Origin: a virus
Taxonomy: Duplodnaviria > Heunggongvirae > Uroviricota > Caudoviricetes
Virus record (IMG/VR): IMGVR_UViG_2645727948_000026
Location: 1-26,357 of that record
Length of the DNA: 26,357 nt
Direction: 5' to 3' (one strand)
The position numbers and the translations under genes are program-made. Numbering within the stretch: the stretch's first letter is position 1; every line of letters starts with the position of its first letter. This document shows, piece by piece, positions 1-13,016 of this stretch. Under the pieces are notes generated by a model. The model saw nothing but the letters and a program-made list of their open reading frames with translations. It was not told the origin of the DNA and did no database searches.

Positions 1-60
1 GGTATCCGTTCTGCTGAAGTGTCATGGCGTTGATTTTACGGTGACTCTTCGACAGTGAAA

Positions 61-5031: not shown

Positions 5032-5153
5032 GAAACCAGAACATGCACACACAAAAAAACCGCTTGCCATGCCGCAATCAGTCAGGTTACATTTCCGCTG
5101 CACCTCATAAAACGGGTGCCGGGATTTCCACCCCGCTGACAACCAAAGCGCAC

Positions 5154-5174
5154 AACCGCGCCAGCGGTTTTTTT
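5154..5174 (+). terminator. Intrinsic-terminator-like hairpin inside the early operon
   Basis: AACCGC-GCCA-GCGGTT stem-loop followed by a T7 run (5168-5174). Confidence 0.4.
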
Positions 5175-5214
5175 GTGCGTACCGTATCGCCACGTCTTTT
5201 TCGCACACGAATTA

Positions 5215-5300
5215 TGGTGGGGCGTACAGGGCCGACTTCGGTCGGGCCGGGTTCTTTGGTTGCCGGTTGTGGAAACCCTGTACGTCTCACCACCCCGAGT
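5215..5300 (+). other. Structured untranslated element (possible regulatory RNA)
   Basis: 9-bp long-range stem CGTACAGGG (5223-5231) / CCCTGTACG (5276-5284) enclosing a CCGAC-UUCG-GUCGG tetraloop hairpin (5232-5245) and CCGG/CCGG pairing. The only ORF across it (track 5043..5660) has implausible composition. Confidence 0.35.
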
Positions 5301-5656: not shown

Positions 5657-6046
5657 ATGATTGACGCTCATGACTTCACAAGATGGGTGCGCACACAGGA
5701 CACCCGTCTGGCTCCCGTTCTTCAGGGATTATTTGATCTCTACATCCGTGGTCGTGACAACAGAGCACGCACCACAAAACCGGAGAATGCAGACACCCTT
5801 TATTTCACAGTAGACGACTGCTACCGCGTGGACTTCACACCACACGGGCTGGCGTTGCACTGCCTGACACCACACGGAGAATCACTGCTGGCGTATTACG
5901 ACTCCCCGACCTCCGTATTTGCGGCAATGCTGGCGCATCGCACTGCTGGCGGGTGTGCCTCGCTGAGTGAATACACCGCTGAATTTAACCGCCTTTCTGC
6001 CCTCTTCTCGCAGGAGTGGCAGCGCGTGACGGGATACCAGCCATGA
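5657..6046 (+). CDS. Early-operon hypothetical protein (129 aa)
   Basis: ORF track; its stop overlaps the likely gpA start (ATGA). Confidence 0.55.
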   Translation: MIDAHDFTRWVRTQDTRLAPVLQGLFDLYIRGRDNRARTTKPENADTLYFTVDDCYRVDFTPHGLALHCLTPHGESLLAYYDSPTSVFAAMLAHRTAGGCASLSEYTAEFNRLSALFSQEWQRVTGYQP

Positions 6047-8883
6047 ATGAGTTTGCATGGAGCTGGAATGAACCACGGCCAGCCATTGATCCGGCCAGAT
6101 TTACGGAGCACAGGCAGGAAACTGAAACCGACCTGCAACGCGCCATCCGTTACTACCTTGAGGCAGACAAAAAGGCTCTGGAAGAACAGGAAGCGAAGGA
6201 GGAAGCCTTTTTCGCACAATCCACCGTGGGTAAAAAACTCATGGCATCCCTTGAGGAAGCCGGACAGCGTGAAAAGCTGGCACAAAGCATCATCAGCAAG
6301 CGTCAGGCAACAGAACAAGACCCGGTGGCCCGTGCTTTTGCCACACTGAAGGTGCTTCCCGTTTATCTGCGTAAACCTCTGAGCCGCCACCTCTCTTTCC
6401 TGCGCAAAAAACAGGAAGCCGATCGCCAGAAAGGCAAAAAGAGCTGGCAGGCTGAACGCTACGCGCGCGGAACCCTGCGCAAAATATTCGAACGCCTGGA
6501 CCGCACCGACCACCGCTGGCTGACACCGGGTTATCGCTCCCTTGCCGGACGCGAACGCCTGGATGATTTGCTTTACCTGCCGCAGCTCAACAAGCACCAG
6601 ATACAGACGCTGGCCACCATGACGGCGGCGATGTTCAGCAGCACCTTCGAAAAACTCTGCGATGGCTTTGGCGCGACCGATGGTGAGCTGACCATGGATG
6701 TAACGCTGAAGGCGTATCAGATGCTGGCCCGCATGGCGTTACACCTGCACGCCATGCCTCCACATTATGACGCACTGACAACAGACAAAGACCGGAGGAA
6801 CGAACCGGACACGGAGCTGCTGCCGGGCGCAACCCTTCGCCTGACCTGTGCGGAATGGTGGAAACGCAAACTGTGGCTGTTACGTTGCGAGTGGCGGGAA
6901 GAACAACTCCGCGCCGCCTGTCTGGTTTCCAGAAAAACATCACCCTATCTGAGCCAGGACGCGTTAAGCGAGTTTCGCGCACAGCGCGAGAAAACACGCG
7001 ATTTCCTGAAAAGTTTCATGCTGGAAAATGAAGACGGGTTCACGATTGATCTCGAGACGGTGTATTACGCGGGAGTAAGTAACCCGGTTCACCGTAAGGC
7101 AGAAATGATGGCCACCATGAAGGGGCTGGAACTTCTGGCCGAAGCCCGTGGCGACAGAGCGGTGTTTCTGACTGTCACCTGCCCGTCAAAATACCACGCA
7201 ACAACGGAGAACGGTCATCCGAATCCCAAATGGAACGGGGCCACAATGCGCGACTCCAGCGATTACCTGGTTAACACGTTTTTTGCGGCGGTCCGCAAAA
7301 AACTGAACCGCGACGGCCTGCGCTGGTATGGCATCCGCACGGTGGAGCCTCACCATGACGGCACTGTGCACTGGCATATGATGGTCTTTGCACATCCGGA
7401 CGAGATTGAAACCATCGTGTCCCACGTCTGCGATATTGCCATTCAGGAAGACCGCCACGAGCTGGGCGATGACATAACTCCGCGTTTTAAGGCGGAGTAC
7501 GTCGACGGCTCAAAAGGCACGCCAACCAGCTACATCGCCACCTACATCGGAAAGAACCTGGACAGCCGCGCCGTGGATGGCATCGACCCGAAAACGGGCA
7601 AGCCACGCGTTGACCACGAAACAGGTAAATCAATGGCCGAGAGCGTGGAGCGCGCCATCGGCTGGGCGCGCCTTCACCGGGTCCGTCAGTTCCAGTTCTT
7701 TGGCATCCCCTCCCGTCAGGTGTGGCGTGAACTGCGCCGCCTTGCCAGCCAGATGGCACGCAATCCGGAAGGCCCGCAACGGCTGAAGGATGACGCAATG
7801 GACGCGGTACTCGCTGCCGCTGATGCCGGATGTTTTGCCACCTACATTGAGAAACAGGGTGGCGTACTTGTTCCACGCAAAGACTACCTGATTCGCACCG
7901 CCTACGACCTCGCAGATGAGCTGAACGATTACGGTGAACAGAGCGTACAGATTTACGGGATCTGGTCGCCGCTCATTGGGGAGTCTTCCCGCGTATGCAC
8001 GCATCCGGATAACTGGAAGCTGGTAAGACGCAAACCGGAAGCGGAAGACAGCGCCCGCGAAAATGGTTTTGACCTTCAGGGCGGCCCTGCCGCCCCTTGG
8101 ACTCGTGGCAATAACTGTCCCCGTGTACAGGAAACAGGCAACAACGGGACAGAACAGCCGGAAGAACGGCCAGCACCGTGGCCGCAGCTTCCTGACGGCG
8201 TTGAAGTAAATGAATGGATGCGCTCACTGAAACGGCACGAACGCCGGGCGCTGATGCGTTCGCTTCGTGACAAACAGGCAAAAAACAGCAGCGATGAAAT
8301 GCAGAACTGGACACAGAGCCGCAAACAGCAGCGGCCTTTGCCTGATAACCACGAGTTACTCGCTAAAGAATGGCGGGAGTCTGCTGAATCTCTCGGCCTG
8401 CATATCGGTGAACAACAGATGCAGCACCTGTTACGGGGCGGCAGTCTGTACGTTGACGGCAGCATCATTGCACCGCAGGGATTTGAAATTGTACGCAAAC
8501 CGGATACCCGCCCGGACAGCCGAATCACGCAGCTCTGGCAGCGTCTGAGCCGTAATCATGGCGTAAGCAGCACGGAGATCCGCCATAACCCGGTCGCCAG
8601 CTATCTGGCACAGCTGGGGGCATCAGACCCTGAAGCCGCCGCACGCCTGGCATCCACACTTCAGCAGGACCAGAACACCATGAAAACACCCGTTACCGTG
8701 CTTTCTGACATGCTGCGCGCCATCCGCGACGCAGAGCACGCACAGAGAATCAGTGAAACCACTGAACGCGCCAGCCGCAAAGCAGACCTGCTGCGGGGTG
8801 GCCTGACCAGTGGAAACAAAAAACAGACAGAAACGGGACTCACGAATCCCGTAAATGAGCAAAAAACGCGCAGCGATATATGA
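6043..8883 (+). CDS. A: Rolling-circle replication initiator endonuclease, P2 gpA-like (about 946 aa)
   Basis: ORF track 6016..8883. HUH motif (TVHWHMMVF) and paired catalytic tyrosines (SYIATYIGKN). Start at ATG 6043 preferred because it couples to the upstream stop; 6016 is also possible. C-terminus is longer than P2 gpA as I recall it (761 aa). Confidence 0.85.
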   Translation: MNEFAWSWNEPRPAIDPARFTEHRQETETDLQRAIRYYLEADKKALEEQEAKEEAFFAQSTVGKKLMASLEEAGQREKLAQSIISKRQATEQDPVARAFATLKVLPVYLRKPLSRHLSFLRKKQEADRQKGKKSWQAERYARGTLRKIFERLDRTDHRWLTPGYRSLAGRERLDDLLYLPQLNKHQIQTLATMTAAMFSSTFEKLCDGFGATDGELTMDVTLKAYQMLARMALHLHAMPPHYDALTTDKDRRNEPDTELLPGATLRLTCAEWWKRKLWLLRCEWREEQLRAACLVSRKTSPYLSQDALSEFRAQREKTRDFLKSFMLENEDGFTIDLETVYYAGVSNPVHRKAEMMATMKGLELLAEARGDRAVFLTVTCPSKYHATTENGHPNPKWNGATMRDSSDYLVNTFFAAVRKKLNRDGLRWYGIRTVEPHHDGTVHWHMMVFAHPDEIETIVSHVCDIAIQEDRHELGDDITPRFKAEYVDGSKGTPTSYIATYIGKNLDSRAVDGIDPKTGKPRVDHETGKSMAESVERAIGWARLHRVRQFQFFGIPSRQVWRELRRLASQMARNPEGPQRLKDDAMDAVLAAADAGCFATYIEKQGGVLVPRKDYLIRTAYDLADELNDYGEQSVQIYGIWSPLIGESSRVCTHPDNWKLVRRKPEAEDSARENGFDLQGGPAAPWTRGNNCPRVQETGNNGTEQPEERPAPWPQLPDGVEVNEWMRSLKRHERRALMRSLRDKQAKNSSDEMQNWTQSRKQQRPLPDNHELLAKEWRESAESLGLHIGEQQMQHLLRGGSLYVDGSIIAPQGFEIVRKPDTRPDSRITQLWQRLSRNHGVSSTEIRHNPVASYLAQLGASDPEAAARLASTLQQDQNTMKTPVTVLSDMLRAIRDAEHAQRISETTERASRKADLLRGGLTSGNKKQTETGLTNPVNEQKTRSDI

Positions 8884-8931
8884 GGCGCGCACAAAACAGG
8901 CAAAAACGGGATTTCAGAATCCCGTAAACGA
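8824..8931. repeat. Two copies of a palindrome-containing direct repeat
   Basis: AAACGGGACTCACGAATCCCGTAAA (8831-8855) and AAACGGGATTTCAGAATCCCGTAAA (8904-8928), with conserved flanks, 73 bp apart. Copy 1 is inside the last gpA codons, copy 2 is intergenic just upstream of the parM-like gene. Confidence 0.6.
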
Positions 8932-8959: not shown

Positions 8960-9919
8960 ATGAAAATTTACATCGACGACGGCTCCACCAACATCAAGCT
9001 GGCATGGACTGAGAACGGCGAACGCCGCAACGCCATCAGCCCGAACAGCTTCAAGTCGGAATGGTCTGCGCCGTTCGGTGGCTCGCAGCCTGCTAACTAC
9101 ATGCTTGATGGCGTGCGCTATGGTTTTGATCCGGTCAGCGATCGCTTTGTCCAGACGACCGACACGCAATACCAGTACAGCGATGTGAATGTCATTGCCA
9201 TTCATCACGCGCTGGTCAAATCAGACATCACGCCACAGGAAGTGGATGTGGTTGTTACCCTGCCACTGAGCGAATATTTCGACACAAACGCACAGCCGGA
9301 CATGGCCAACATCAACCGCAAAAAAGCGAACGTCATGCGCCCGGTGGAGTACCAGAACGGCGAAGCATTCACTATCCGTAACGTACGGGTTATGCCTGAA
9401 TCCATTCCGGCTGGCTTTAAAGCACTGGCTGACATGAGTCCGTTTGAATCCCTGCTGATTGTGGATTTGGGCGGAACCACGCTGGATGTGGCAAAGGTTC
9501 AGGGGCAACTGGCAGGTATCAGCCAGGTGTTTTGCGATCCACACGTAGGCGTTTCTCTTATGGCCGATGCCGTACTGTCGGTGATGGCCACTAACGGTAT
9601 GCGCACCAGTCACCACATCGCCAATACCATTATCGAACATCGCCATAATGAAGCCTGGCTGCGCCAGCACATCCACAATGACGCGCATTACGCCAGCCTG
9701 ATGGCGGTTATTCGTGAAAAGGAAGAAACACTGAAACAACGCGTGATCCGCGCGCTGGCGGTTTTTTCGGGTTACGGGCGGGTGATGGTTGTCGGTGGCG
9801 GGGCGGAGATTGTGGCACCCGCTATCCGCGAAGCCTGCGGAGTTAATGCGACTTTCATCGCGGACGGGGTGCCACAGTTTGCTCTGGTTAATGGGCTGTA
9901 CGCAATGGACAAGGAGTAA
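8960..9919 (+). CDS. parM: Actin-like ATPase, ParM/StbA family
   Basis: ORF track. N-terminus MKIYIDDGSTNIKLAW and blocks VMPESIPAG, LLIVDLGGTTLDV, VMVVGGGAE match my recollection of plasmid R1 ParM and the actin-fold phosphate/adenosine motifs. Confidence 0.7.
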   Translation: MKIYIDDGSTNIKLAWTENGERRNAISPNSFKSEWSAPFGGSQPANYMLDGVRYGFDPVSDRFVQTTDTQYQYSDVNVIAIHHALVKSDITPQEVDVVVTLPLSEYFDTNAQPDMANINRKKANVMRPVEYQNGEAFTIRNVRVMPESIPAGFKALADMSPFESLLIVDLGGTTLDVAKVQGQLAGISQVFCDPHVGVSLMADAVLSVMATNGMRTSHHIANTIIEHRHNEAWLRQHIHNDAHYASLMAVIREKEETLKQRVIRALAVFSGYGRVMVVGGGAEIVAPAIREACGVNATFIADGVPQFALVNGLYAMDKE

Positions 9920-9923
9920 ACCA

Positions 9924-10235
9924 ATGACGACACCAACCAGACGGATAAGTTTCTATCTGAAGCCCGCCGCCGTCAAGAACGAAGGAGAAGCATGCGCCTG
10001 GCTGGACAGCCTTACACCAGAAGCCCGCAAAAGCGGCCAACGCGTGGCTTTTCTGGCCGGGCTGGCACTTCTGAAGACGAATCCGGCAGAGGCTTACCGA
10101 CTGGCCGCATGGGCTGATGATGAGATGTTACCTGTGACACAAATCAGCTCAAAAAAGTTTGAAGCACAGTCTGCACCAGTGGCTAAGATAACCAGCCAGA
10201 TGGCTGGGAATATCCGGGCGTTATTTCCTGAGTAA
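9924..10235 (+). CDS. parR: ParR-like small DNA-binding adaptor (103 aa)
   Basis: ORF track 9789..10235 trimmed to ATG 9924 (GGAG RBS, 4 nt after the parM stop). N-terminus RRISFYLKP...LDSL...AFLAGLAL resembles R1 ParR as recalled. Confidence 0.55.
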   Translation: MTTPTRRISFYLKPAAVKNEGEACAWLDSLTPEARKSGQRVAFLAGLALLKTNPAEAYRLAAWADDEMLPVTQISSKKFEAQSAPVAKITSQMAGNIRALFPE

Positions 10236-10363
10236 AAGCATCTGCGCGAAAAATGCTCACGTTTATAGAGACAGTATCATTCCATTTGGCACACTTACTT
10301 CAATAATCGATCTGTTAAACAAATAGATTGTCTATTATCTATCGATTAAAACGATCAATTATC

Positions 10364-10391
10364 TTGACAGTAATGTGCCTTTTTGTAAGAT
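10364..10391 (+). promoter_or_regulatory. Sigma70-type promoter (rightward)
   Basis: TTGACA (10364-10369), 16-bp spacer, TAAGAT (10386-10391); AT-rich upstream region with CGAT/TATC motifs. Confidence 0.5.
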
Positions 10392-10441
10392 CGTTCGCAT
10401 TGTGAGCGACAAGATAATTGCGCGGCATTGTCCATGCAAAA

Positions 10442-10469
10442 CGCCCCAATAGCAGCAACTATTGGGGCG
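10442..10469 (-). terminator. Hairpin acting as a leftward terminator (candidate antisense RNA 3' end)
   Basis: Perfect 11-bp stem CGCCCCAATAG / CTATTGGGGCG with a 6-nt loop; only the minus-strand reading is followed by a U-run (plus AAAA at 10438-10441). Confidence 0.45.
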
Positions 10470-10497
10470 TAAAACTCGGTCGGGCTCACTTAACCTG

Positions 10498-10582
10498 ATA
10501 TGCGTGCCTTCCGAAGTAAATCAAAATGTGCGTCGTATATTTTATTGCTTACACGCACCTCTGTAAAGGCACGCATATTTTT
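10498..10582 (+). terminator. Long hairpin plus T-run (terminator or attenuator) before the 89-aa ORF
   Basis: 13-bp arms ATATGCGTGCCTT (10498-10510) / AAGGCACGCATAT (10566-10578) followed by TTTT; an inner GTGCGT/ACGCAC stem lies in the loop. Confidence 0.4.
10539..10567 (-). promoter_or_regulatory. Sigma70-type promoter (leftward), convergent with the 10364 promoter
   Basis: On the minus strand: TTTACA (plus 10562-10567), 17-bp spacer, TAAAAT (plus 10539-10544). Predicts a transcript of about 95 nt ending at the 10442-10469 hairpin. Confidence 0.45.
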
Positions 10583-10599
10583 CCTATGAGGTAAATAAA

Positions 10600-10869
10600 G
10601 TGCGGGCTAAAACAGGTATTTGCAAGAACCCTCATCGTTATAATCCAACATTTCTGTCTCTCCCTGAATATCAAGGACAAGAAGGTCGGCACAAATGCGC
10701 TGCCTGTGCTTTTGAGCTAGGCATAAAAGATGCGCTTGAAGGACGCGCTATGGCTCAGAATGATTTAGTTTTAGCTAACATTCCGTTTAGCCAGGCTGGA
10801 ACTGTAAGGCACAGAGATGCCTATGAAGCATATGTTCGTGGTTGGCGATTAATAAACAGCAACAATTGA
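10600..10869 (+). CDS. Small Cys-containing protein (89 aa), function unknown
   Basis: ORF track; GTG start with GAGGT RBS. CAACAF motif with a single CxxC. Followed by a clean intrinsic terminator. Confidence 0.4.
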   Translation: MRAKTGICKNPHRYNPTFLSLPEYQGQEGRHKCAACAFELGIKDALEGRAMAQNDLVLANIPFSQAGTVRHRDAYEAYVRGWRLINSNN

Positions 10870-10877
10870 TACTTTTG

Positions 10878-10903
10878 AAGCGCCGATAAGGCGCTTTTTT
10901 TGT
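10878..10903 (+). terminator. Rho-independent terminator
   Basis: AAGCGCC-GATAA-GGCGCTT stem-loop followed by a T8 run. Confidence 0.7.
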
Positions 10904-10904
10904 T

Positions 10905-11046
10905 TGCACGATAGTGCACAAGTTTGCACAATTTTTTTGAACGACTTTTTGTACTTCCGGCCCGCGTGGTGGCTGGATCCGTCAAGGATCCGTACGTGCA
11001 CAAAAAAACGCGTTTTTTCTGCGCGCAGGTGACGGGGGAACAGCCC
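10905..11046. other. Probable cos / packaging region with phased repeats
   Basis: TGCAC at 10905, 10915, 10925 (10-bp phasing) and 10997; two CGGATCCG palindromes (10975-10992); A6-CGCG-T6 palindrome (11003-11018); G-rich 19-mer GGTGACGGGGGAACAGCCC (11028-11046) resembling the P2/186 cohesive end as I recall it. Placement next to Q fits P2. Confidence 0.3.
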
Positions 11047-11302
11047 GCGTTTCAGGGGGTAAATAGCATTCCCTGAACGATGTCGCAGAGACACAACAGA
11101 ATGGCCATATTTCTCACGCTGAGCATGAAAAAGGCGTGAGGGCTTTTGATTTGATGGGGTGAAAGGTAAGGCCGTCAAAATCGCACTGAGGCAGCGAGAA
11201 CATACAGTCAACGCGGTGGAATTGCGTAAGAGTCTGACCGTCGATGGTGGCGATAAACTGGAAGGCGTCGTGAAATTATCTGATTGATACAGGAGCTGGA
11301 GA

Positions 11303-11331
11303 GCCGGGGCATAAATTTTTTATGCCCCGGC
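11303..11331. repeat. 29-bp perfect palindrome
   Basis: GCCGGGGCATAAA-TTT-TTTATGCCCCGGC, in the non-coding stretch upstream of the 174-aa ORF. Confidence 0.6.
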
Positions 11332-11430
11332 GAAGCAGCAGACAAGCGAAGCGCGTCAGCGATACGGCACCTTGCCGACCATACTTCATAAGTGCAAAAT
11401 ACGAGCAAAGAAATCAATGGAGGCTGTCTT

Positions 11431-11955
11431 ATGGTCATTAATTACAAGCAGTTAAGAGAAAAACGGGAGCAGGTAAAGGAGAGCTTTCGCCGCAATGAAG
11501 ATCTGACCCCGCTTGTACGCCTTGCCCAGGGCATTGTTGATGCTTATGAAATCTCGCTGGAGCTGCCATCACAGACCTGGACAGATAGCGACGGTAATCG
11601 CCAGCATTACGTTTCATGCGGACTGGAAGCAGCCGAAGGATTTCGCAGAATGCCTTTATCCCAGATCCCTGCCGCTACCCCCAAAGCACGGGGCAGCAAT
11701 GATGAGCGAAAACTGACTTTTAGTATTGAAACGGTGGTTGACGACACACCTGGCGAAGTCGCGTTCGTGCACACGCCTGTTTCGATCGCAATGTATAACG
11801 ATGAAATACAGGTTCGCGTTAATAATAATATCGTGCCACTTAAAGAAGGTAATTCACCCTACACCACCGTTTGTGAAGCCATTCAATATTACGTTCTCTC
11901 TGAAATTGATAATCTCAAGCCTGACGGCACCCAGAAAATGGTTCAACTCTGGTAA
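11431..11955 (+). CDS. Hypothetical protein (174 aa) convergent with the portal gene
   Basis: ORF track 11392..11955 trimmed to ATG 11431 (GGAGG 7 nt upstream). No recognisable motif. Confidence 0.55.
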   Translation: MVINYKQLREKREQVKESFRRNEDLTPLVRLAQGIVDAYEISLELPSQTWTDSDGNRQHYVSCGLEAAEGFRRMPLSQIPAATPKARGSNDERKLTFSIETVVDDTPGEVAFVHTPVSIAMYNDEIQVRVNNNIVPLKEGNSPYTTVCEAIQYYVLSEIDNLKPDGTQKMVQLW

Positions 11956-11960
11956 AAAGG

Positions 11961-11986
11961 ACAGCCCCATCACGGGGCTGTTTTTT
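11961..11986. terminator. Bidirectional terminator shared by the 174-aa ORF and Q
   Basis: CAGCCCC-ATCAC-GGGGCTG hairpin with T6 downstream on plus and a T-run on minus (plus AAAAA at 11953-11957). Confidence 0.6.
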
Positions 11987-13016
11987 CATCAAGAAGAGCA
12001 TAAGAGTTAAAACGGATCACCTCTTCGCCAAGCCAGTCATTGATGTGCTTCATAGCCTCCATGACGGGCATCAGCTCGTTAATTGCGTAAACCCGCGCTG
12101 CCTTCTCCACATCGCCAAACGCACTTTTTTCGCCCGGCATCGCCCCCATCAGTTGCGGCGGAACGCGGTGCGCAGCCAGCACATCATCACGGGATGCCGC
12201 CTTAACATTCATGAATTCATCTTTTGCGGTGATCTGCTGGAACGGCAAAATTTGCACCCCCTCTTTGCCCCCGTTGGGCGCATGAATGAGCACGTTTTTA
12301 AACGCACCACCACCACGTGCCCCCTGTAGCGTTTCTTTCAGGGAGTCCATGCTTTCGCGGTTTACCTGCGCTGCACCGATGTAGATGATGCACCCGGCGT
12401 GGGATCCGTTGTCGTAGTACAGTTTTCTGAACATGTCCGCCGAATGAGAAAGGCTGGCCGAGAGTAATGCGCCAAGATATTCCGGCATGCCGTAGATTTC
12501 CTGGTTAATATCCGGATTCATCAGGTGGCACACTTTGCCAGGACGAAACTGAAACGCGTCCTTGCCATCCTGCACATACCACCATGATTCAAGATCGCTT
12601 CCGCGTCGCATGTATTTCGCCAGGGCGTGCCGTAATTTAAGCGGTTCGCCGAGCATATTGCTTCGAAGCTCAAGGAATGCGTTACCGAACACAAACCAGT
12701 CCAGCGCCAGCGCCGAGAAATCCTGCCGGGAAAGCAGCGGGTGCGGGATGTAGCAACCGAGTAATACATTGCGCTTAAAGTAAAGCGCAGACTGATGCCA
12801 GGACGTTTGCCGGGCTGCTCTTGCCAGACCGTACCAGTCCACCGGGGTTTCATACCACCGCCCGTTATCAGCACAGTACATATTGTCCAGCAGGTCATGC
12901 CCGGTCAGGCGATAAGGACCATCAAATGTGAATGCACTGAGCGATGATTCTTTCCTGAGCGCATCAGCGAGATCAATGCGTGAACTCATGCGCACTTTTT
13001 TATTTTTTCTGCTCAT
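11970..13016 (-). CDS. Q: Portal protein, P2 gpQ-like
   Basis: ORF track (348 aa); size and position match P2 Q; start overlaps the P stop. Confidence 0.85.
   Translation of the reverse strand: MSRKNKKVRMSSRIDLADALRKESSLSAFTFDGPYRLTGHDLLDNMYCADNGRWYETPVDWYGLARAARQTSWHQSALYFKRNVLLGCYIPHPLLSRQDFSALALDWFVFGNAFLELRSNMLGEPLKLRHALAKYMRRGSDLESWWYVQDGKDAFQFRPGKVCHLMNPDINQEIYGMPEYLGALLSASLSHSADMFRKLYYDNGSHAGCIIYIGAAQVNRESMDSLKETLQGARGGGAFKNVLIHAPNGGKEGVQILPFQQITAKDEFMNVKAASRDDVLAAHRVPPQLMGAMPGEKSAFGDVEKAARVYAINELMPVMEAMKHINDWLGEEVIRFNSYALLDEKTAP

What the first reader, a model, noticed from the sequence alone, without database searches (positions are those of the whole stretch)
10236..10600. Convergent promoter/terminator module predicting an overlapping sense-antisense RNA pair
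A rightward promoter (TTGACA-16-TAAGAT) and a leftward promoter (TTTACA-17-TAAAAT) face each other across about 150 bp. The leftward transcript would end at a perfect 11-bp hairpin plus U-run (about 95 nt); the rightward one passes a 13-bp-stem hairpin plus T-run just before the RBS of the 89-aa ORF. This is the layout of antisense-controlled loci such as type I toxin-antitoxin systems, though the tiny leader ORFs (11, 22 and 29 codons) are not strongly hydrophobic.
Basis: seen in the sequence. Interest (0 to 1): 0.55.

Follow-up and report, generated by a model that had tools for sequence, protein, structure and literature searches.

The report
Antisense-controlled phage moron cassette
The facing promoters and hairpins are real, conserved parts of a small self-contained gene cassette carried by several kinds of temperate phage, in which a short antisense RNA most likely controls a conserved zinc-binding protein of unknown function; it is not a demonstrated toxin-antitoxin system.

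Summary
In this window alone they are no more than chance would give: 3 promoter-like sites against 3.2 expected, and neither hairpin passes the terminator scan.

Comparison with related loci changes that. The 89-aa ORF is a real gene (phrog_3941; 173 cluster representatives). In 45 distinct upstream regions from at least six lineages (E. coli, Salmonella/Pantoea-type, Providencia/Proteus, Arsenophonus, Gilliamella), a sigma-70-like rightward promoter lies 200-236 nt before the start codon in all 17 representatives examined. A leftward TTTAC[A/T]-17-TAnnnT promoter lies 26-46 nt before it in all 45, although the sequence between them has diverged beyond BLAST detection.

The first hairpin shows compensatory changes in 9 of 12 pairs. 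The large stem recurs with different sequences. The predicted 68-98 nt antisense RNAs all fold into two stem-loops.

The unit (promoter, structured leader, antisense RNA, ORF, terminator) sits in classic cargo slots of P2-like, lambdoid and P22-like phages. The leader ORFs are not conserved, the protein is not hydrophobic, and distant homologues lack the antisense module, so type I toxin-antitoxin membership is unsupported. No Rfam family matches. The direction of regulation and the protein's function remain inferred.

The parts
10303..10362 (.). Imperfect 26-nt-arm palindrome just upstream of the rightward promoter. It contains ATCGAT at 10306-10311 and 10341-10346, and GATC at 10309 and 10353. 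Its right end carries the TAA..GATC box (10346-10356) that is invariant in every lineage. Probable regulator or Dam/SeqA site.
   Evidence: I1. Conserved between E. coli lineages A and B, which are about 75% identical. Absent from phage P88, which has ParM/ParR but not the cassette. TAA..GATC is invariant in alignment A4.
10364..10391 (+). Rightward sigma-70-type promoter TTGACA-16-TAAGAT. GATC overlaps the -10 hexamer (10389-10392). Inferred transcription start at about 10397-10399.
   Evidence: TTGAnn-16..18-TAnnnT lies at the same distance from the start codon in all 17 representatives. The tool finds it independently in L006, L145 and L138.
10398..10599 (+). Structured 5' leader of the ORF's mRNA, about 202 nt. 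It contains the complement of the antisense RNA, the large stem and the Shine-Dalgarno sequence.
   Evidence: Fold z = -4.3. Leaders of 165-202 nt with the same order of elements occur in all lineages.
10441..10470 (.). Hairpin 1: a 12-bp perfect stem with a 6-nt loop. On the minus strand it forms stem-loop II of the antisense RNA, followed by UUUUG, and is the probable terminator. On the plus strand it is the target stem-loop.
   Evidence: (I6). Covariation: 9 of 12 pairs compensatory, score 0.567 against 0.18 for shuffles (0 of 500), and no more than 0.14 when slid. Not listed by the terminator scan.
10436..10533 (-). Predicted cis-antisense small RNA of about 95-98 nt. Start inferred at 10531-10534; end inferred after the U-run at about 10436.
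   Evidence: Promoter and hairpin positions. The two-stem-loop architecture is conserved in all 17 representatives, with a GUUUU before stem-loop II that is invariant across the 14 aligned non-window representatives and also present in the window's RNA. No transcript data are available.
10498..10578 (+). Large stem, 13 bp: ATATGCGTGCCTT paired with AAGGCACGCATAT, enclosing an inner hairpin and the leftward promoter. The 5' arm lies inside the antisense target. The 3' arm overlaps GTAAAG, the complement of the antisense -35, and is followed by a T-run at 10578-10582.
   Evidence: (I4). An equivalent 5'/3' pairing with different sequences occurs in every lineage (z from -1.0 to -6.9). Not listed by the terminator scan because of the 55-nt loop.
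10539..10567 (-). Leftward sigma-70-type promoter TTTACA-17-TAAAAT, with -35 at 10567-10562 and -10 at 10544-10539.
   Evidence: TTTAC[A/T]-17-TAnnnT is found in all 45 distinct leaders, with 8 different -10 hexamers and unrelated spacers. GTAAAG and the A...TA of the -10 are the only invariant columns in the 3' half of alignment A4. The positional cluster covers 17 of 17 representatives.
10588..10591 (+). Shine-Dalgarno GAGG, 8 nt before the GTG start codon.
   Evidence: In other lineages the Shine-Dalgarno sequence sits in a local hairpin that shares bases with the 3' arm of the large stem.
10600..10869 (+). 89-aa ORF: a conserved, probably zinc-binding small protein (C8, H12, C33, C36; SQAG..RH motif), family phrog_3941, function unknown.
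   Evidence: 173 representatives; pLDDT 90.9. No Pfam, NCBIfam, PADLOC or PDB match. The same domain is fused to HNH, HNH_2, NOV_C, DndB/DpdB and WYL in larger proteins.
10877..10905 (+). Intrinsic terminator closing the cassette: GAAGCGCC-GATAA-GGCGCTTT followed by a T-run.
   Evidence: Equivalent terminators follow the ORF in L006 and L145 and in L085-L087. Homology to other Xuanwuvirus phages resumes at about 10905.

Best explanation
Positions 10290-10905 form an autonomous cargo cassette, a 'moron', lying in the gpA-gpQ hotspot of a P2-like (Xuanwuvirus, P88-type) prophage, downstream of ParM/ParR.

How it is built:
- A near-consensus sigma-70 promoter, preceded by an invariant TAA..GATC box, transcribes an mRNA with a structured leader of about 200 nt, the 89-aa zinc-binding protein gene and its own terminator.
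- A second, convergent sigma-70 promoter lies 26-46 nt upstream of the start codon, inside the loop of the leader's large stem.
- That promoter transcribes a cis-antisense RNA of about 70-100 nt with two stem-loops. It is fully complementary to the middle of the leader (hairpin 1 plus the 5' arm of the large stem) but does not cover the ribosome-binding site.

Proposed mechanism (inferred):
- The antisense RNA contacts the leader through the complementary stem-loops and forms a duplex.
- The duplex removes the 5' arm of the large stem.
- The leader then refolds so that the ribosome-binding site and start codon become less accessible, and the duplex may also be cleaved. Protein output is held low.
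- Convergent transcription across about 135 bp may add transcriptional interference.
- Conserved GATC sites at both promoters suggest that Dam methylation state adjusts the balance between the two transcripts.

Shown here: the sequence features, and their conservation and covariation across lineages. Inferred: that the transcripts exist, their ends, the direction of regulation, any role for Dam, and what the protein does.
For: 1. Promoters.
- Both hexamer pairs are in the window.
- The plus promoter lies at -200 to -236 from the start codon in all 17 representatives.
- The minus promoter TTTAC[A/T]-17-TAnnnT occurs in all 45 distinct leaders, with 8 different -10 hexamers.
- The invariant alignment columns fall on the GATC box, the -35 TTGA, GTAAAG and the A...TA of the -10.
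- Promoter-like sites cluster only at these two positions: 17 of 17 representatives each, against 3 or fewer elsewhere.
- The scanning tool finds the same convergent pair in Providencia and Gilliamella loci.
- The leaders are too diverged for blastn or nhmmer between genera, so this conservation is selective.

2. RNA structure.
- Hairpin 1 covaries: 9 of 12 pairs compensatory, with 0 of 500 shuffles reaching the observed score.
- Three C.A mismatches on the plus strand would be G.U pairs on the minus strand.
- The large stem is kept with different sequences.
- All predicted antisense RNAs have two stem-loops, and GUUUU precedes stem-loop II (invariant across the 14 aligned non-window representatives and present in the window's RNA).

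3. The gene is real: 173 cluster representatives with invariant C/H/R residues and a confident structural model.

4. The unit is self-contained.
- It has its own terminator.
- It is found in the P2-like gpA-gpQ hotspot (10.1101/2021.01.21.427644).
- It also sits between Q and the lysis genes in lambdoid phages and downstream of cI in a P22-like phage.
- P88 carries other cargo in the same slot.

5. The module travels with one protein subfamily only.

6. Direction of regulation: with the antisense target blocked, predicted start-codon accessibility falls by at least 0.15 in 9 of 17 leaders and rises by that much in 1.

7. GATC occurs 61 times against 13.3 expected, at conserved positions.
Against: - No transcript data were available, so both RNAs are predictions.
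- In the window alone the promoter count is at chance level.
- Hairpin 1 fails the tool's terminator criteria in the window and in three other lineages.
- The minus-strand U-tract weakens to UUCCC and is absent in L137, so the antisense 3' end is uncertain outside E. coli.
- In the Salmonella/Pantoea-type lineage the minus -10 (TAATCT or TAGTCT) matches only 3 of 6 positions, below the tool's cut-off.
- The accessibility calculation gives no change for this window (0.32 to 0.28) or for 6 other leaders.
- In this window the large stem plus T-run could act as an attenuator that the antisense RNA would relieve. That would make the regulation positive rather than negative.
- Inverted repeats fold on both strands, so covariation alone does not identify the functional strand.
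Confidence: 0.62

Rival explanations
1. Only the plus-strand leader is functional, acting as an attenuator, thermosensor or protein-binding RNA. On this view the large stem plus T-run and the ribosome-binding-site hairpins regulate the ORF in cis. The conserved GTAAAG and A...TA would be RNA or operator motifs, and the minus 'promoter' would be silent.
For: - The leader is strongly structured (z = -4.3).
- The large stem is followed by a T-rich tract in most lineages.
- Ribosome-binding-site hairpins share bases with the 3' arm of the large stem.
- The minus -10 is weak in one large lineage.
- No good minus-strand terminator exists outside E. coli.
Against: - The invariant positions are exactly T1, A2 and T6 of a -10 hexamer and TTTAC of a -35, at a fixed 17-nt spacing, while the spacer changes completely.
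- An RNA motif would not be expected to copy sigma-70 geometry in 45 of 45 leaders.
- The large stem has a 20-55 nt internal region, which is unlike a typical intrinsic terminator and is why the scan did not list it.
Confidence: 0.15
2. A type I toxin-antitoxin system: the 89-aa protein is toxic and the antisense RNA is its labile antitoxin, stabilising the prophage or aborting infection.
For: - The layout resembles hok/sok-type and symE/symR-type loci: a cis-antisense RNA against the 5' UTR and a highly structured leader.
- The location is a defence and exclusion hotspot.
- Non-hydrophobic type I toxins are known (SymE and RalR, from my own knowledge).
Against: - The protein is hydrophilic and probably zinc-binding, with a compact helical model and no nuclease or membrane features.
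- More than 60 distant homologues in many phyla have no antisense module.
- The same domain occurs as a sensor-like module fused to nucleases, not as the effector.
- The leader ORFs are not conserved.
- No toxicity data exist.
Confidence: 0.1
3. The leftward promoter is real, but its main role is not base-pairing with the leader. It could act by transcriptional interference or occlusion of the rightward promoter when transcription reads through hairpin 1. Alternatively, the small RNA could act in trans on host or competing-phage targets.
For: - Weak or absent U-tracts after hairpin 1 in several lineages would allow read-through into the plus promoter, about 100 nt further on.
- The antisense RNA does not cover the ribosome-binding site.
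- A U-rich stretch before a terminal hairpin resembles Hfq-dependent small RNAs (from my own knowledge).
Against: - The conserved two-stem-loop design, complementary to target stem-loops, is typical of pairing antisense RNAs.
- In the E. coli lineages hairpin 1 plus UUUU is a plausible terminator.
Confidence: 0.1
4. A chance arrangement of AT-rich promoter-like hexamers and inverted repeats, with no regulatory role.
For: Promoter-like sites in the window occur at the rate expected by chance (3 against 3.2). Neither hairpin passes the terminator scan.
Against: Both promoters keep their positions in 17 of 17 representatives, hairpin 1 covaries, and the large stem recurs in lineages too diverged for BLAST detection.
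Confidence: 0.03

Closest known systems
FinP / traJ of F-like plasmids
   Same: - A cis-antisense RNA of about 70-80 nt with two stem-loops, the second doubling as the terminator.
- It is transcribed from a promoter inside the 5' UTR of the regulated gene and is complementary to target stem-loops in the mRNA leader.
- GATC/Dam methylation influences the promoters in pSLT.
These properties of FinP/traJ are from my own knowledge.
   Different: - FinP covers the traJ ribosome-binding site, whereas here the antisense RNA ends 45-60 nt upstream of it.
- No FinO-like partner was identified.
- There is no sequence or Rfam similarity.
- The regulated protein is unrelated.
IS10 RNA-IN / RNA-OUT
   Same: Convergent sense and antisense promoters separated by a short overlap, with a Dam GATC site in the -10 of the sense promoter. 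The window has TAAGATC at 10386-10392. The IS10 facts are from my own knowledge.
   Different: - The IS10 overlap is only about 36 bp and includes the start codon.
- RNA-OUT is a single stem-loop.
- Here the overlap is about 135 bp and lies entirely in the leader.
CopA/CopT (plasmid R1), and tisB/IstR-1 standby-site control
   Same: The antisense RNA binds well upstream of the regulated start codon and acts indirectly, through leader structure or ribosome loading (from my own knowledge). Here the target is likewise upstream of the ribosome-binding site.
   Different: - CopA works through a conserved leader peptide (tap) that is translationally coupled to repA. No conserved leader ORF exists here.
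- IstR-1 is encoded divergently, not in cis.
Type I toxin-antitoxin systems (hok/sok, symE/symR, ralR/ralA)
   Same: A cis-antisense RNA against a structured 5' UTR of a small ORF on a mobile element.
   Different: - The product is an 89-aa hydrophilic zinc-binding protein with no evidence of toxicity.
- Distant family members lack any antisense partner.
Phage morons and the P2-like gpA-gpQ defence hotspot (old, tin and others)
   Same: A promoter-gene-terminator unit inserted between conserved phage genes. It occupies the same slot as old/tin in P2 and is replaced by other cargo in P88.
   Different: - Described morons are not known to share a portable antisense-RNA control module.
- No defence function has been shown for this protein, and PADLOC has no match.
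Rfam sar RNA (RF00262) and ctRNA_pGA1 (RF00236)
   Same: Weak matches, limited to the hairpin, on the minus strand at 10441-10470 (22 bits; E = 0.11-0.15).
   Different: The scores are far below the gathering thresholds (43-45 bits), and the matches cover only a generic GC-rich hairpin. This is not a member of either family.

Membership tests
Cis-encoded antisense RNA control module (general kind) | A promoter on the opposite strand inside the regulated transcript, conserved in homologous loci | tested here: met
   TTTAC[A/T]-17-TAnnnT in 45 of 45 distinct leaders. Invariant columns. Positional clustering. The tool finds it in the window, L006 and L138.
Cis-encoded antisense RNA control module (general kind) | A defined 3' end (intrinsic terminator) giving a short discrete RNA | tested here: inconclusive
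   Hairpin 1 covaries and is followed by UUUUG or UUUUCC in the E. coli lineages. Elsewhere the tail is UUUCCC or UUCCC, and in L137 it is CCCC. The terminator scan never lists it.
Cis-encoded antisense RNA control module (general kind) | Both transcripts actually exist and the antisense RNA changes expression of the sense gene | not testable with these tools
   No transcriptome or reporter data are accessible. Needs dRNA-seq, Northern blots and reporter fusions.
Type I toxin-antitoxin system | A small toxic protein, typically under 60 aa and hydrophobic or membrane-active, or a demonstrated nuclease | tested here: not met
   The protein is 89 aa and hydrophilic, with conserved C/H zinc ligands and a compact helical model. 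It has no nuclease or membrane domain. Toxicity itself was not tested.
Type I toxin-antitoxin system | The toxin gene is always accompanied by its RNA antitoxin | tested here: not met
   Only the Enterobacterales/Orbales phage subfamily carries the module. None of about 69 more distant homologues does.
Leader-peptide-coupled antisense control (CopA/tap/repA type) | A conserved short leader ORF overlapped by the antisense RNA and ending next to the main start codon | tested here: not met
   Leader ORFs differ in position, length and start codon between lineages and lack Shine-Dalgarno sequences.
Moron (autonomous phage cargo unit) | Own promoter and own terminator flanking a gene that is not part of the conserved phage backbone, with variable presence among related phages | tested here: met
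   Promoter and terminator. Present in 166 of 5426 E. coli genomes. P88 carries other genes in the same slot. The same unit occurs in lambdoid and P22-like phages.
Rho-independent terminator or attenuator (large stem on the plus strand) | A GC-rich stem with a short loop, immediately followed by a U-tract | tested here: inconclusive
   A 13-bp perfect stem plus TTTTT, but with a 55-nt internal region. Not listed by the scan. A T-rich tract follows the 3' arm in most lineages.
Any Rfam 15 family | Score at or above the family's gathering threshold | tested here: not met
   No hit in 10100-11400 above threshold; the best is 22 bits against 43-45. None in seven other lineage loci.
Known anti-phage defence protein families (PADLOC) and Pfam/NCBIfam families | A significant profile match for the 89-aa protein | tested here: not met
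   No matches. The only hit is phrog_3941, 'unknown function'. No PDB match by sequence or fold.

The most novel reading that the evidence does not exclude
The cassette is a portable, methylation-gated switch. Dam methylation state at the conserved GATC sites of the two convergent promoters (for example hemimethylated DNA just after replication or DNA entry) would set the ratio of mRNA to antisense RNA.

On this reading the 89-aa protein is a free-standing version of the DNA-sensing domain that type IV-like restriction nucleases carry fused to HNH or NOV_C domains. It would be produced in a pulse and would either exclude superinfecting phages or protect the phage's own DNA, acting as a sensor-domain decoy or blocker.

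That would make it a new kind of single-protein defence or anti-defence module with its own RNA-based safety catch.
Probability: 0.15. Interest if true: 0.75.

Novelty: new member of a known kind. Interest (0 to 1): 0.5.

Why it matters
- It defines a previously undescribed antisense RNA and leader family, with no Rfam match, that moves as a unit with an uncharacterised but widespread phage protein family (phrog_3941).
- The unit is found in P2-like, lambdoid and P22-like prophages of E. coli (about 3% of complete genomes, including ETEC H10407 and O111 strains), Salmonella, Providencia/Proteus, Arsenophonus and Gilliamella.
- It shows that cargo genes in phage hotspots can carry their own portable post-transcriptional control.
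- It flags a gene that NCBI's annotation pipeline often leaves uncalled.
- It gives a concrete, easily tested candidate for tight control of a protein whose domain is otherwise found in restriction-like nucleases.

Tried and rejected
- **Rfam.** No family matched at gathering or E-value thresholds, in the window or in seven other lineage loci. The only hits were sub-threshold hairpin matches to sar, ctRNA_pGA1 and Spot 42.
- **Word-indexed protein search.** It found only copies at least 98% identical, which at first suggested an orphan or spurious ORF. The exhaustive HMMER search overturned this with 173 representatives.
- **blastn and nhmmer of the leader against all fetched loci.** These found only E. 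coli lineages A and B. The cross-genus conservation became visible only by anchoring on the ORF start.
- **Leader-peptide and translational-coupling model.** Rejected, because the leader ORFs are not conserved.
- **A minus-strand small protein encoded by the antisense transcript.** Rejected. The 39/44-aa (window) and 48-aa (L003) minus-strand ORFs share only the C-terminal IDRFNR, which is the translated promoter-upstream box, and they read hairpin 1 in different frames.
- **The palindrome 10303-10362 as the ParM/ParR centromere.** Rejected. It is absent from P88, which has ParM/ParR but no cassette. A better centromere candidate lies upstream of parM.
- **Thermodynamic test of ribosome-binding-site accessibility with and without the antisense RNA.** It gave only a trend: 9 of 17 down, 1 up, 7 unchanged, with the window unchanged. 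The direction of regulation is therefore not settled.
- **MAFFT plus RNAalifold on the predicted antisense RNAs.** The alignment was out of register between lineages, and only the base of stem-loop II was recovered.
Full report
**Context.** The window is a P2-like prophage of the Xuanwuvirus (P88) type. It encodes:
- a GpA replication endonuclease (6016-8883);
- ParM (8960-9919);
- a StbB/ParR-type partition protein (9945-10235);
- a portal protein on the minus strand (11970-13016).

The finding lies just after parR, in the gpA-gpQ interval. This interval is the known cargo and defence hotspot of P2-like phages, next to cos, and in P2 itself it holds old and tin (10.1101/2021.01.21.427644, read).

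**Checking the observation.** Every feature is present.
- The two hexamer pairs are TTGACA-16-TAAGAT (10364-10391, plus strand) and TTTACA-17-TAAAAT (10567-10539, minus strand), each matching 10 of 12 positions.
- Hairpin 1 has perfect 12-nt arms at 10441-10452 and 10459-10470.
- The large stem has perfect 13-nt arms at 10498-10510 and 10566-10578. A T-run, GAGG and the GTG at 10600 follow.
- Both strands fold better than shuffled sequence (z = -4.3 and -4.0).

Taken alone, however, the window proves little. The scan finds 3 promoter-like sites in 3 kb where 3.2 are expected, and neither hairpin passes the terminator criteria.

**The ORF is a real gene.**
- A word-indexed search found only near-identical copies.
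- The exhaustive HMMER search found 173 cluster representatives, mostly 80-95 aa.
- Invariant residues are C8, H12, R30, G41, Q65, R70 and H71. H31, C33 and C36 are nearly invariant.
- This pattern and a confident compact helical model (pLDDT 90.9) suggest a zinc-binding protein.
- The family is phrog_3941, 'unknown function'. It has no Pfam, NCBIfam, PADLOC or PDB match.
- In larger proteins the same domain is fused to HNH, HNH_2, NOV_C (PD-T4-1/PDC-S36-like), DndB/DpdB and WYL domains.
- One distant homologue sits beside two DNA methyltransferases.
- By inference, this points to a DNA-binding or DNA-sensing role.
- RefSeq annotation often omits the gene.

**Comparative test of the regulatory region.**
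- The exact locus is in 166 of 5426 complete E. coli genomes.
- A second E. coli lineage, about 75% identical (L003, L004, L121-L125), keeps the promoter and hairpin 1. It replaces the arms of the large stem with GAGGTGTCATCT and AGATGAACACCTC, and it has an unannotated homologous ORF.
- Scans of genome and viral collections with the protein gave 160 more loci.
- The leaders of other genera have no detectable nucleotide similarity to the window.
- When anchored on the ORF start, all 45 distinct leaders of the Enterobacterales/Orbales phage subfamily carry GTAAAG 26-46 nt upstream of the start codon.
- GTAAAG is the complement of a minus-strand TTTAC[A/T]. Exactly 17 nt further along the minus strand lies TAnnnT, in eight versions: TAAAAT, TACGAT, TAGAAT, TACAAT, TAGACT, TAAACT, TAATCT and TAGTCT. 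The spacers are unrelated.
- None of about 69 more distant homologues has this arrangement.
- A plus-strand TTGAnn-16..18-TAnnnT lies 200-236 nt upstream in all 17 representatives, preceded by an invariant TAA..GATC box.
- In the alignment the invariant columns are the GATC box, the -35 TTGA, GTAAAG and the A...TA of the -10.
- Promoter-like sites cluster only at these two positions.
- The scanning tool independently reports the same convergent pair in Providencia and Gilliamella loci.
- In one Salmonella/Pantoea-type locus the minus -10 is below the tool's cut-off.

**RNA structure.**
- Hairpin 1 keeps a GCCCC/GGGGC base, while its upper half changes with compensation.
  - On an 11-sequence alignment, 9 of 12 pairs show double changes.
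  - The covariation score is 0.567, against 0.18 for shuffles (0 of 500 reach it) and no more than 0.14 for slid controls.
- In three sequences a C.A mismatch on the plus strand would be a G.U pair on the minus strand, a weak hint about which strand is functional.
- In every lineage the segment containing GTAAAG pairs with a segment between hairpin 1 and the antisense start. The sequences differ between lineages.
- The predicted antisense RNAs (68-98 nt) always consist of:
  - a short 5' tail;
  - stem-loop I, with a different sequence in each lineage;
  - GUUUU, invariant across the 14 aligned non-window representatives and also present in the window's RNA;
  - the GC-rich stem-loop II, which is hairpin 1;
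  - a pyrimidine-rich tail.
- The U-tract is UUUUG or UUUUCC in E. coli but weaker elsewhere, and it is absent in one Gilliamella lineage. The 3' end is therefore uncertain outside E. coli.

**What it is.**
- The unit runs from about 10290 to about 10905 and ends with its own terminator at 10877-10897.
- Homology to other Xuanwuvirus phages resumes at about 10905.
- P88 carries two unrelated genes in the same slot.
- The same unit lies between the Q antiterminator and the lysis genes in a Providencia phage and an Arsenophonus phage-plasmid.
- It also lies downstream of cI in a P22-like Salmonella phage, where an annotated 'hypothetical protein' overlaps the leader.
- It is therefore a portable moron with a built-in sense/antisense control module.

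**Mechanism (inferred).**
- The antisense RNA is complementary to hairpin 1 and to the 5' arm of the large stem, but it stops 45-60 nt before the ribosome-binding site.
- In several lineages the 3' arm of the large stem can pair either with the 5' arm or with the Shine-Dalgarno region. Examples are GGCACCTT/AAGGTGC in the Salmonella/Pantoea type and CCCTG/CAGGAG in Providencia. Sequestering the 5' arm should then close the ribosome-binding site.
- Forcing the target region open lowers predicted start-codon accessibility in 9 of 17 leaders and raises it in 1. It does not change it for this window.
- In the window, the large stem plus T-run could instead be an attenuator that the antisense RNA relieves.
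- I favour repression, which is the usual outcome for antisense RNAs directed at a 5' UTR, but the direction is not established.
- GATC is enriched 4.6-fold (61 observed against 13.3 expected). It sits at conserved positions: upstream of the plus -35 in all 17 representatives, and also:
  - over or after the plus -10, at TAAGATC in this window;
  - in the non-E. coli lineages, at the antisense start and next to its -35.
- This recalls Dam control at IS10 and at finP/traJ (my own knowledge). It is a lead, not a result.

**Comparison with known systems.**
- The closest working analogues are FinP/traJ, IS10 RNA-IN/RNA-OUT and CopA/CopT.
- It matches no Rfam family.
- Type I toxin-antitoxin membership is not supported. 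The protein is not a small hydrophobic peptide or a recognisable nuclease, distant homologues lack the RNA partner, and the leader ORFs are not conserved.

**Verdict.**
- The antisense-pair interpretation is well supported by conservation, though not yet by any transcript data.
- The toxin-antitoxin reading is unsupported.
- It is a new member of a known kind of control, attached to an uncharacterised phage protein family.
- Interest is moderate.

Noticed in passing
window 5100-5297 (+): Rfam hits above gathering score to isrK (5100-5174, 64 bits) and C4 antisense RNA (5210-5297, 82 bits). This is a P1/P7-type antisense immunity module in a P2-like prophage. The same pair also occurs in the Arsenophonus phage-plasmid locus L087 (4645-4828).
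   Followed up: no
window 8831-8855 and 8904-8928: Two direct copies of AAACGGGA-N9-ATCCCGTAAA, each an inverted repeat, lie just upstream of parM. The first copy is inside the 3' end of the gpA gene. They are a candidate parC centromere or ParR operator.
   Followed up: partly
window 10303-10362: An imperfect palindrome of about 60 bp (26-nt arms, 73% complementary) with ATCGAT/GATC motifs lies immediately upstream of the cassette's rightward promoter. It is highly conserved between two E. coli lineages that are about 75% identical, and it is absent from phage P88, which has ParM/ParR but no cassette. Probably an operator for an unidentified regulator.
   Followed up: partly
window 10309, 10353, 10389; regulatory regions of L003-L159: GATC is enriched 4.6-fold in the cassette's regulatory regions (61 observed against 13.3 expected over 17 representatives). 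One site about 10 bp upstream of the plus -35 is invariant. In the non-E. coli lineages there are palindromic GATC motifs (GTGATCAC, GAGATCTC) at the predicted antisense start.
   Followed up: partly
window 10600-10869; RefSeq loci such as L002 (ETEC H10407): The 89-aa ORF is left unannotated in many RefSeq E. coli genomes, and its homologue is unannotated in L003 and L004. In Salmonella phage BIS08P22 an annotated 'hypothetical protein' (L085 2165-2401) overlaps the non-coding leader and is probably spurious.
   Followed up: partly
L003 4626-4913, L004 4614-4901: In the second E. coli lineage the cassette is followed by an extra 95-aa gene (phrog_33929, unknown function) with a weak PADLOC hit to PDC-S02 (E = 0.0046). 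This gene is absent from the window.
   Followed up: no
proteins P0021, P0047, P0053, P0075, P0084 and others; locus L170: The domain of the 89-aa protein recurs at the N-terminus of HNH, HNH_2 and NOV_C (PD-T4-1-like) nucleases and at the C-terminus of DndB/DpdB and WYL proteins. One stand-alone homologue lies beside two DNA methyltransferases. This suggests a DNA-sensing or modification-sensing domain.
   Followed up: partly
window 11303-11331: A perfect 13-nt inverted repeat, GCCGGGGCATAAA-ttt-TTTATGCCCCGGC, lies in the region conserved among Xuanwuvirus phages between the cassette and the portal gene. It may be a bidirectional terminator or a cos-related element.
   Followed up: no
window 11392-11955 (+): A 187-aa ORF (phrog_5091, unknown function, no Pfam hit) lies in the same hotspot, ending just before the portal gene.
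   Followed up: no
window 10356-10366 and 10410-10420: A perfect 11-nt inverted repeat, CAATTATCTTG / CAAGATAATTG, brackets the rightward promoter and the predicted transcription start. I did not see it in the second E. coli lineage (L003).
   Followed up: no
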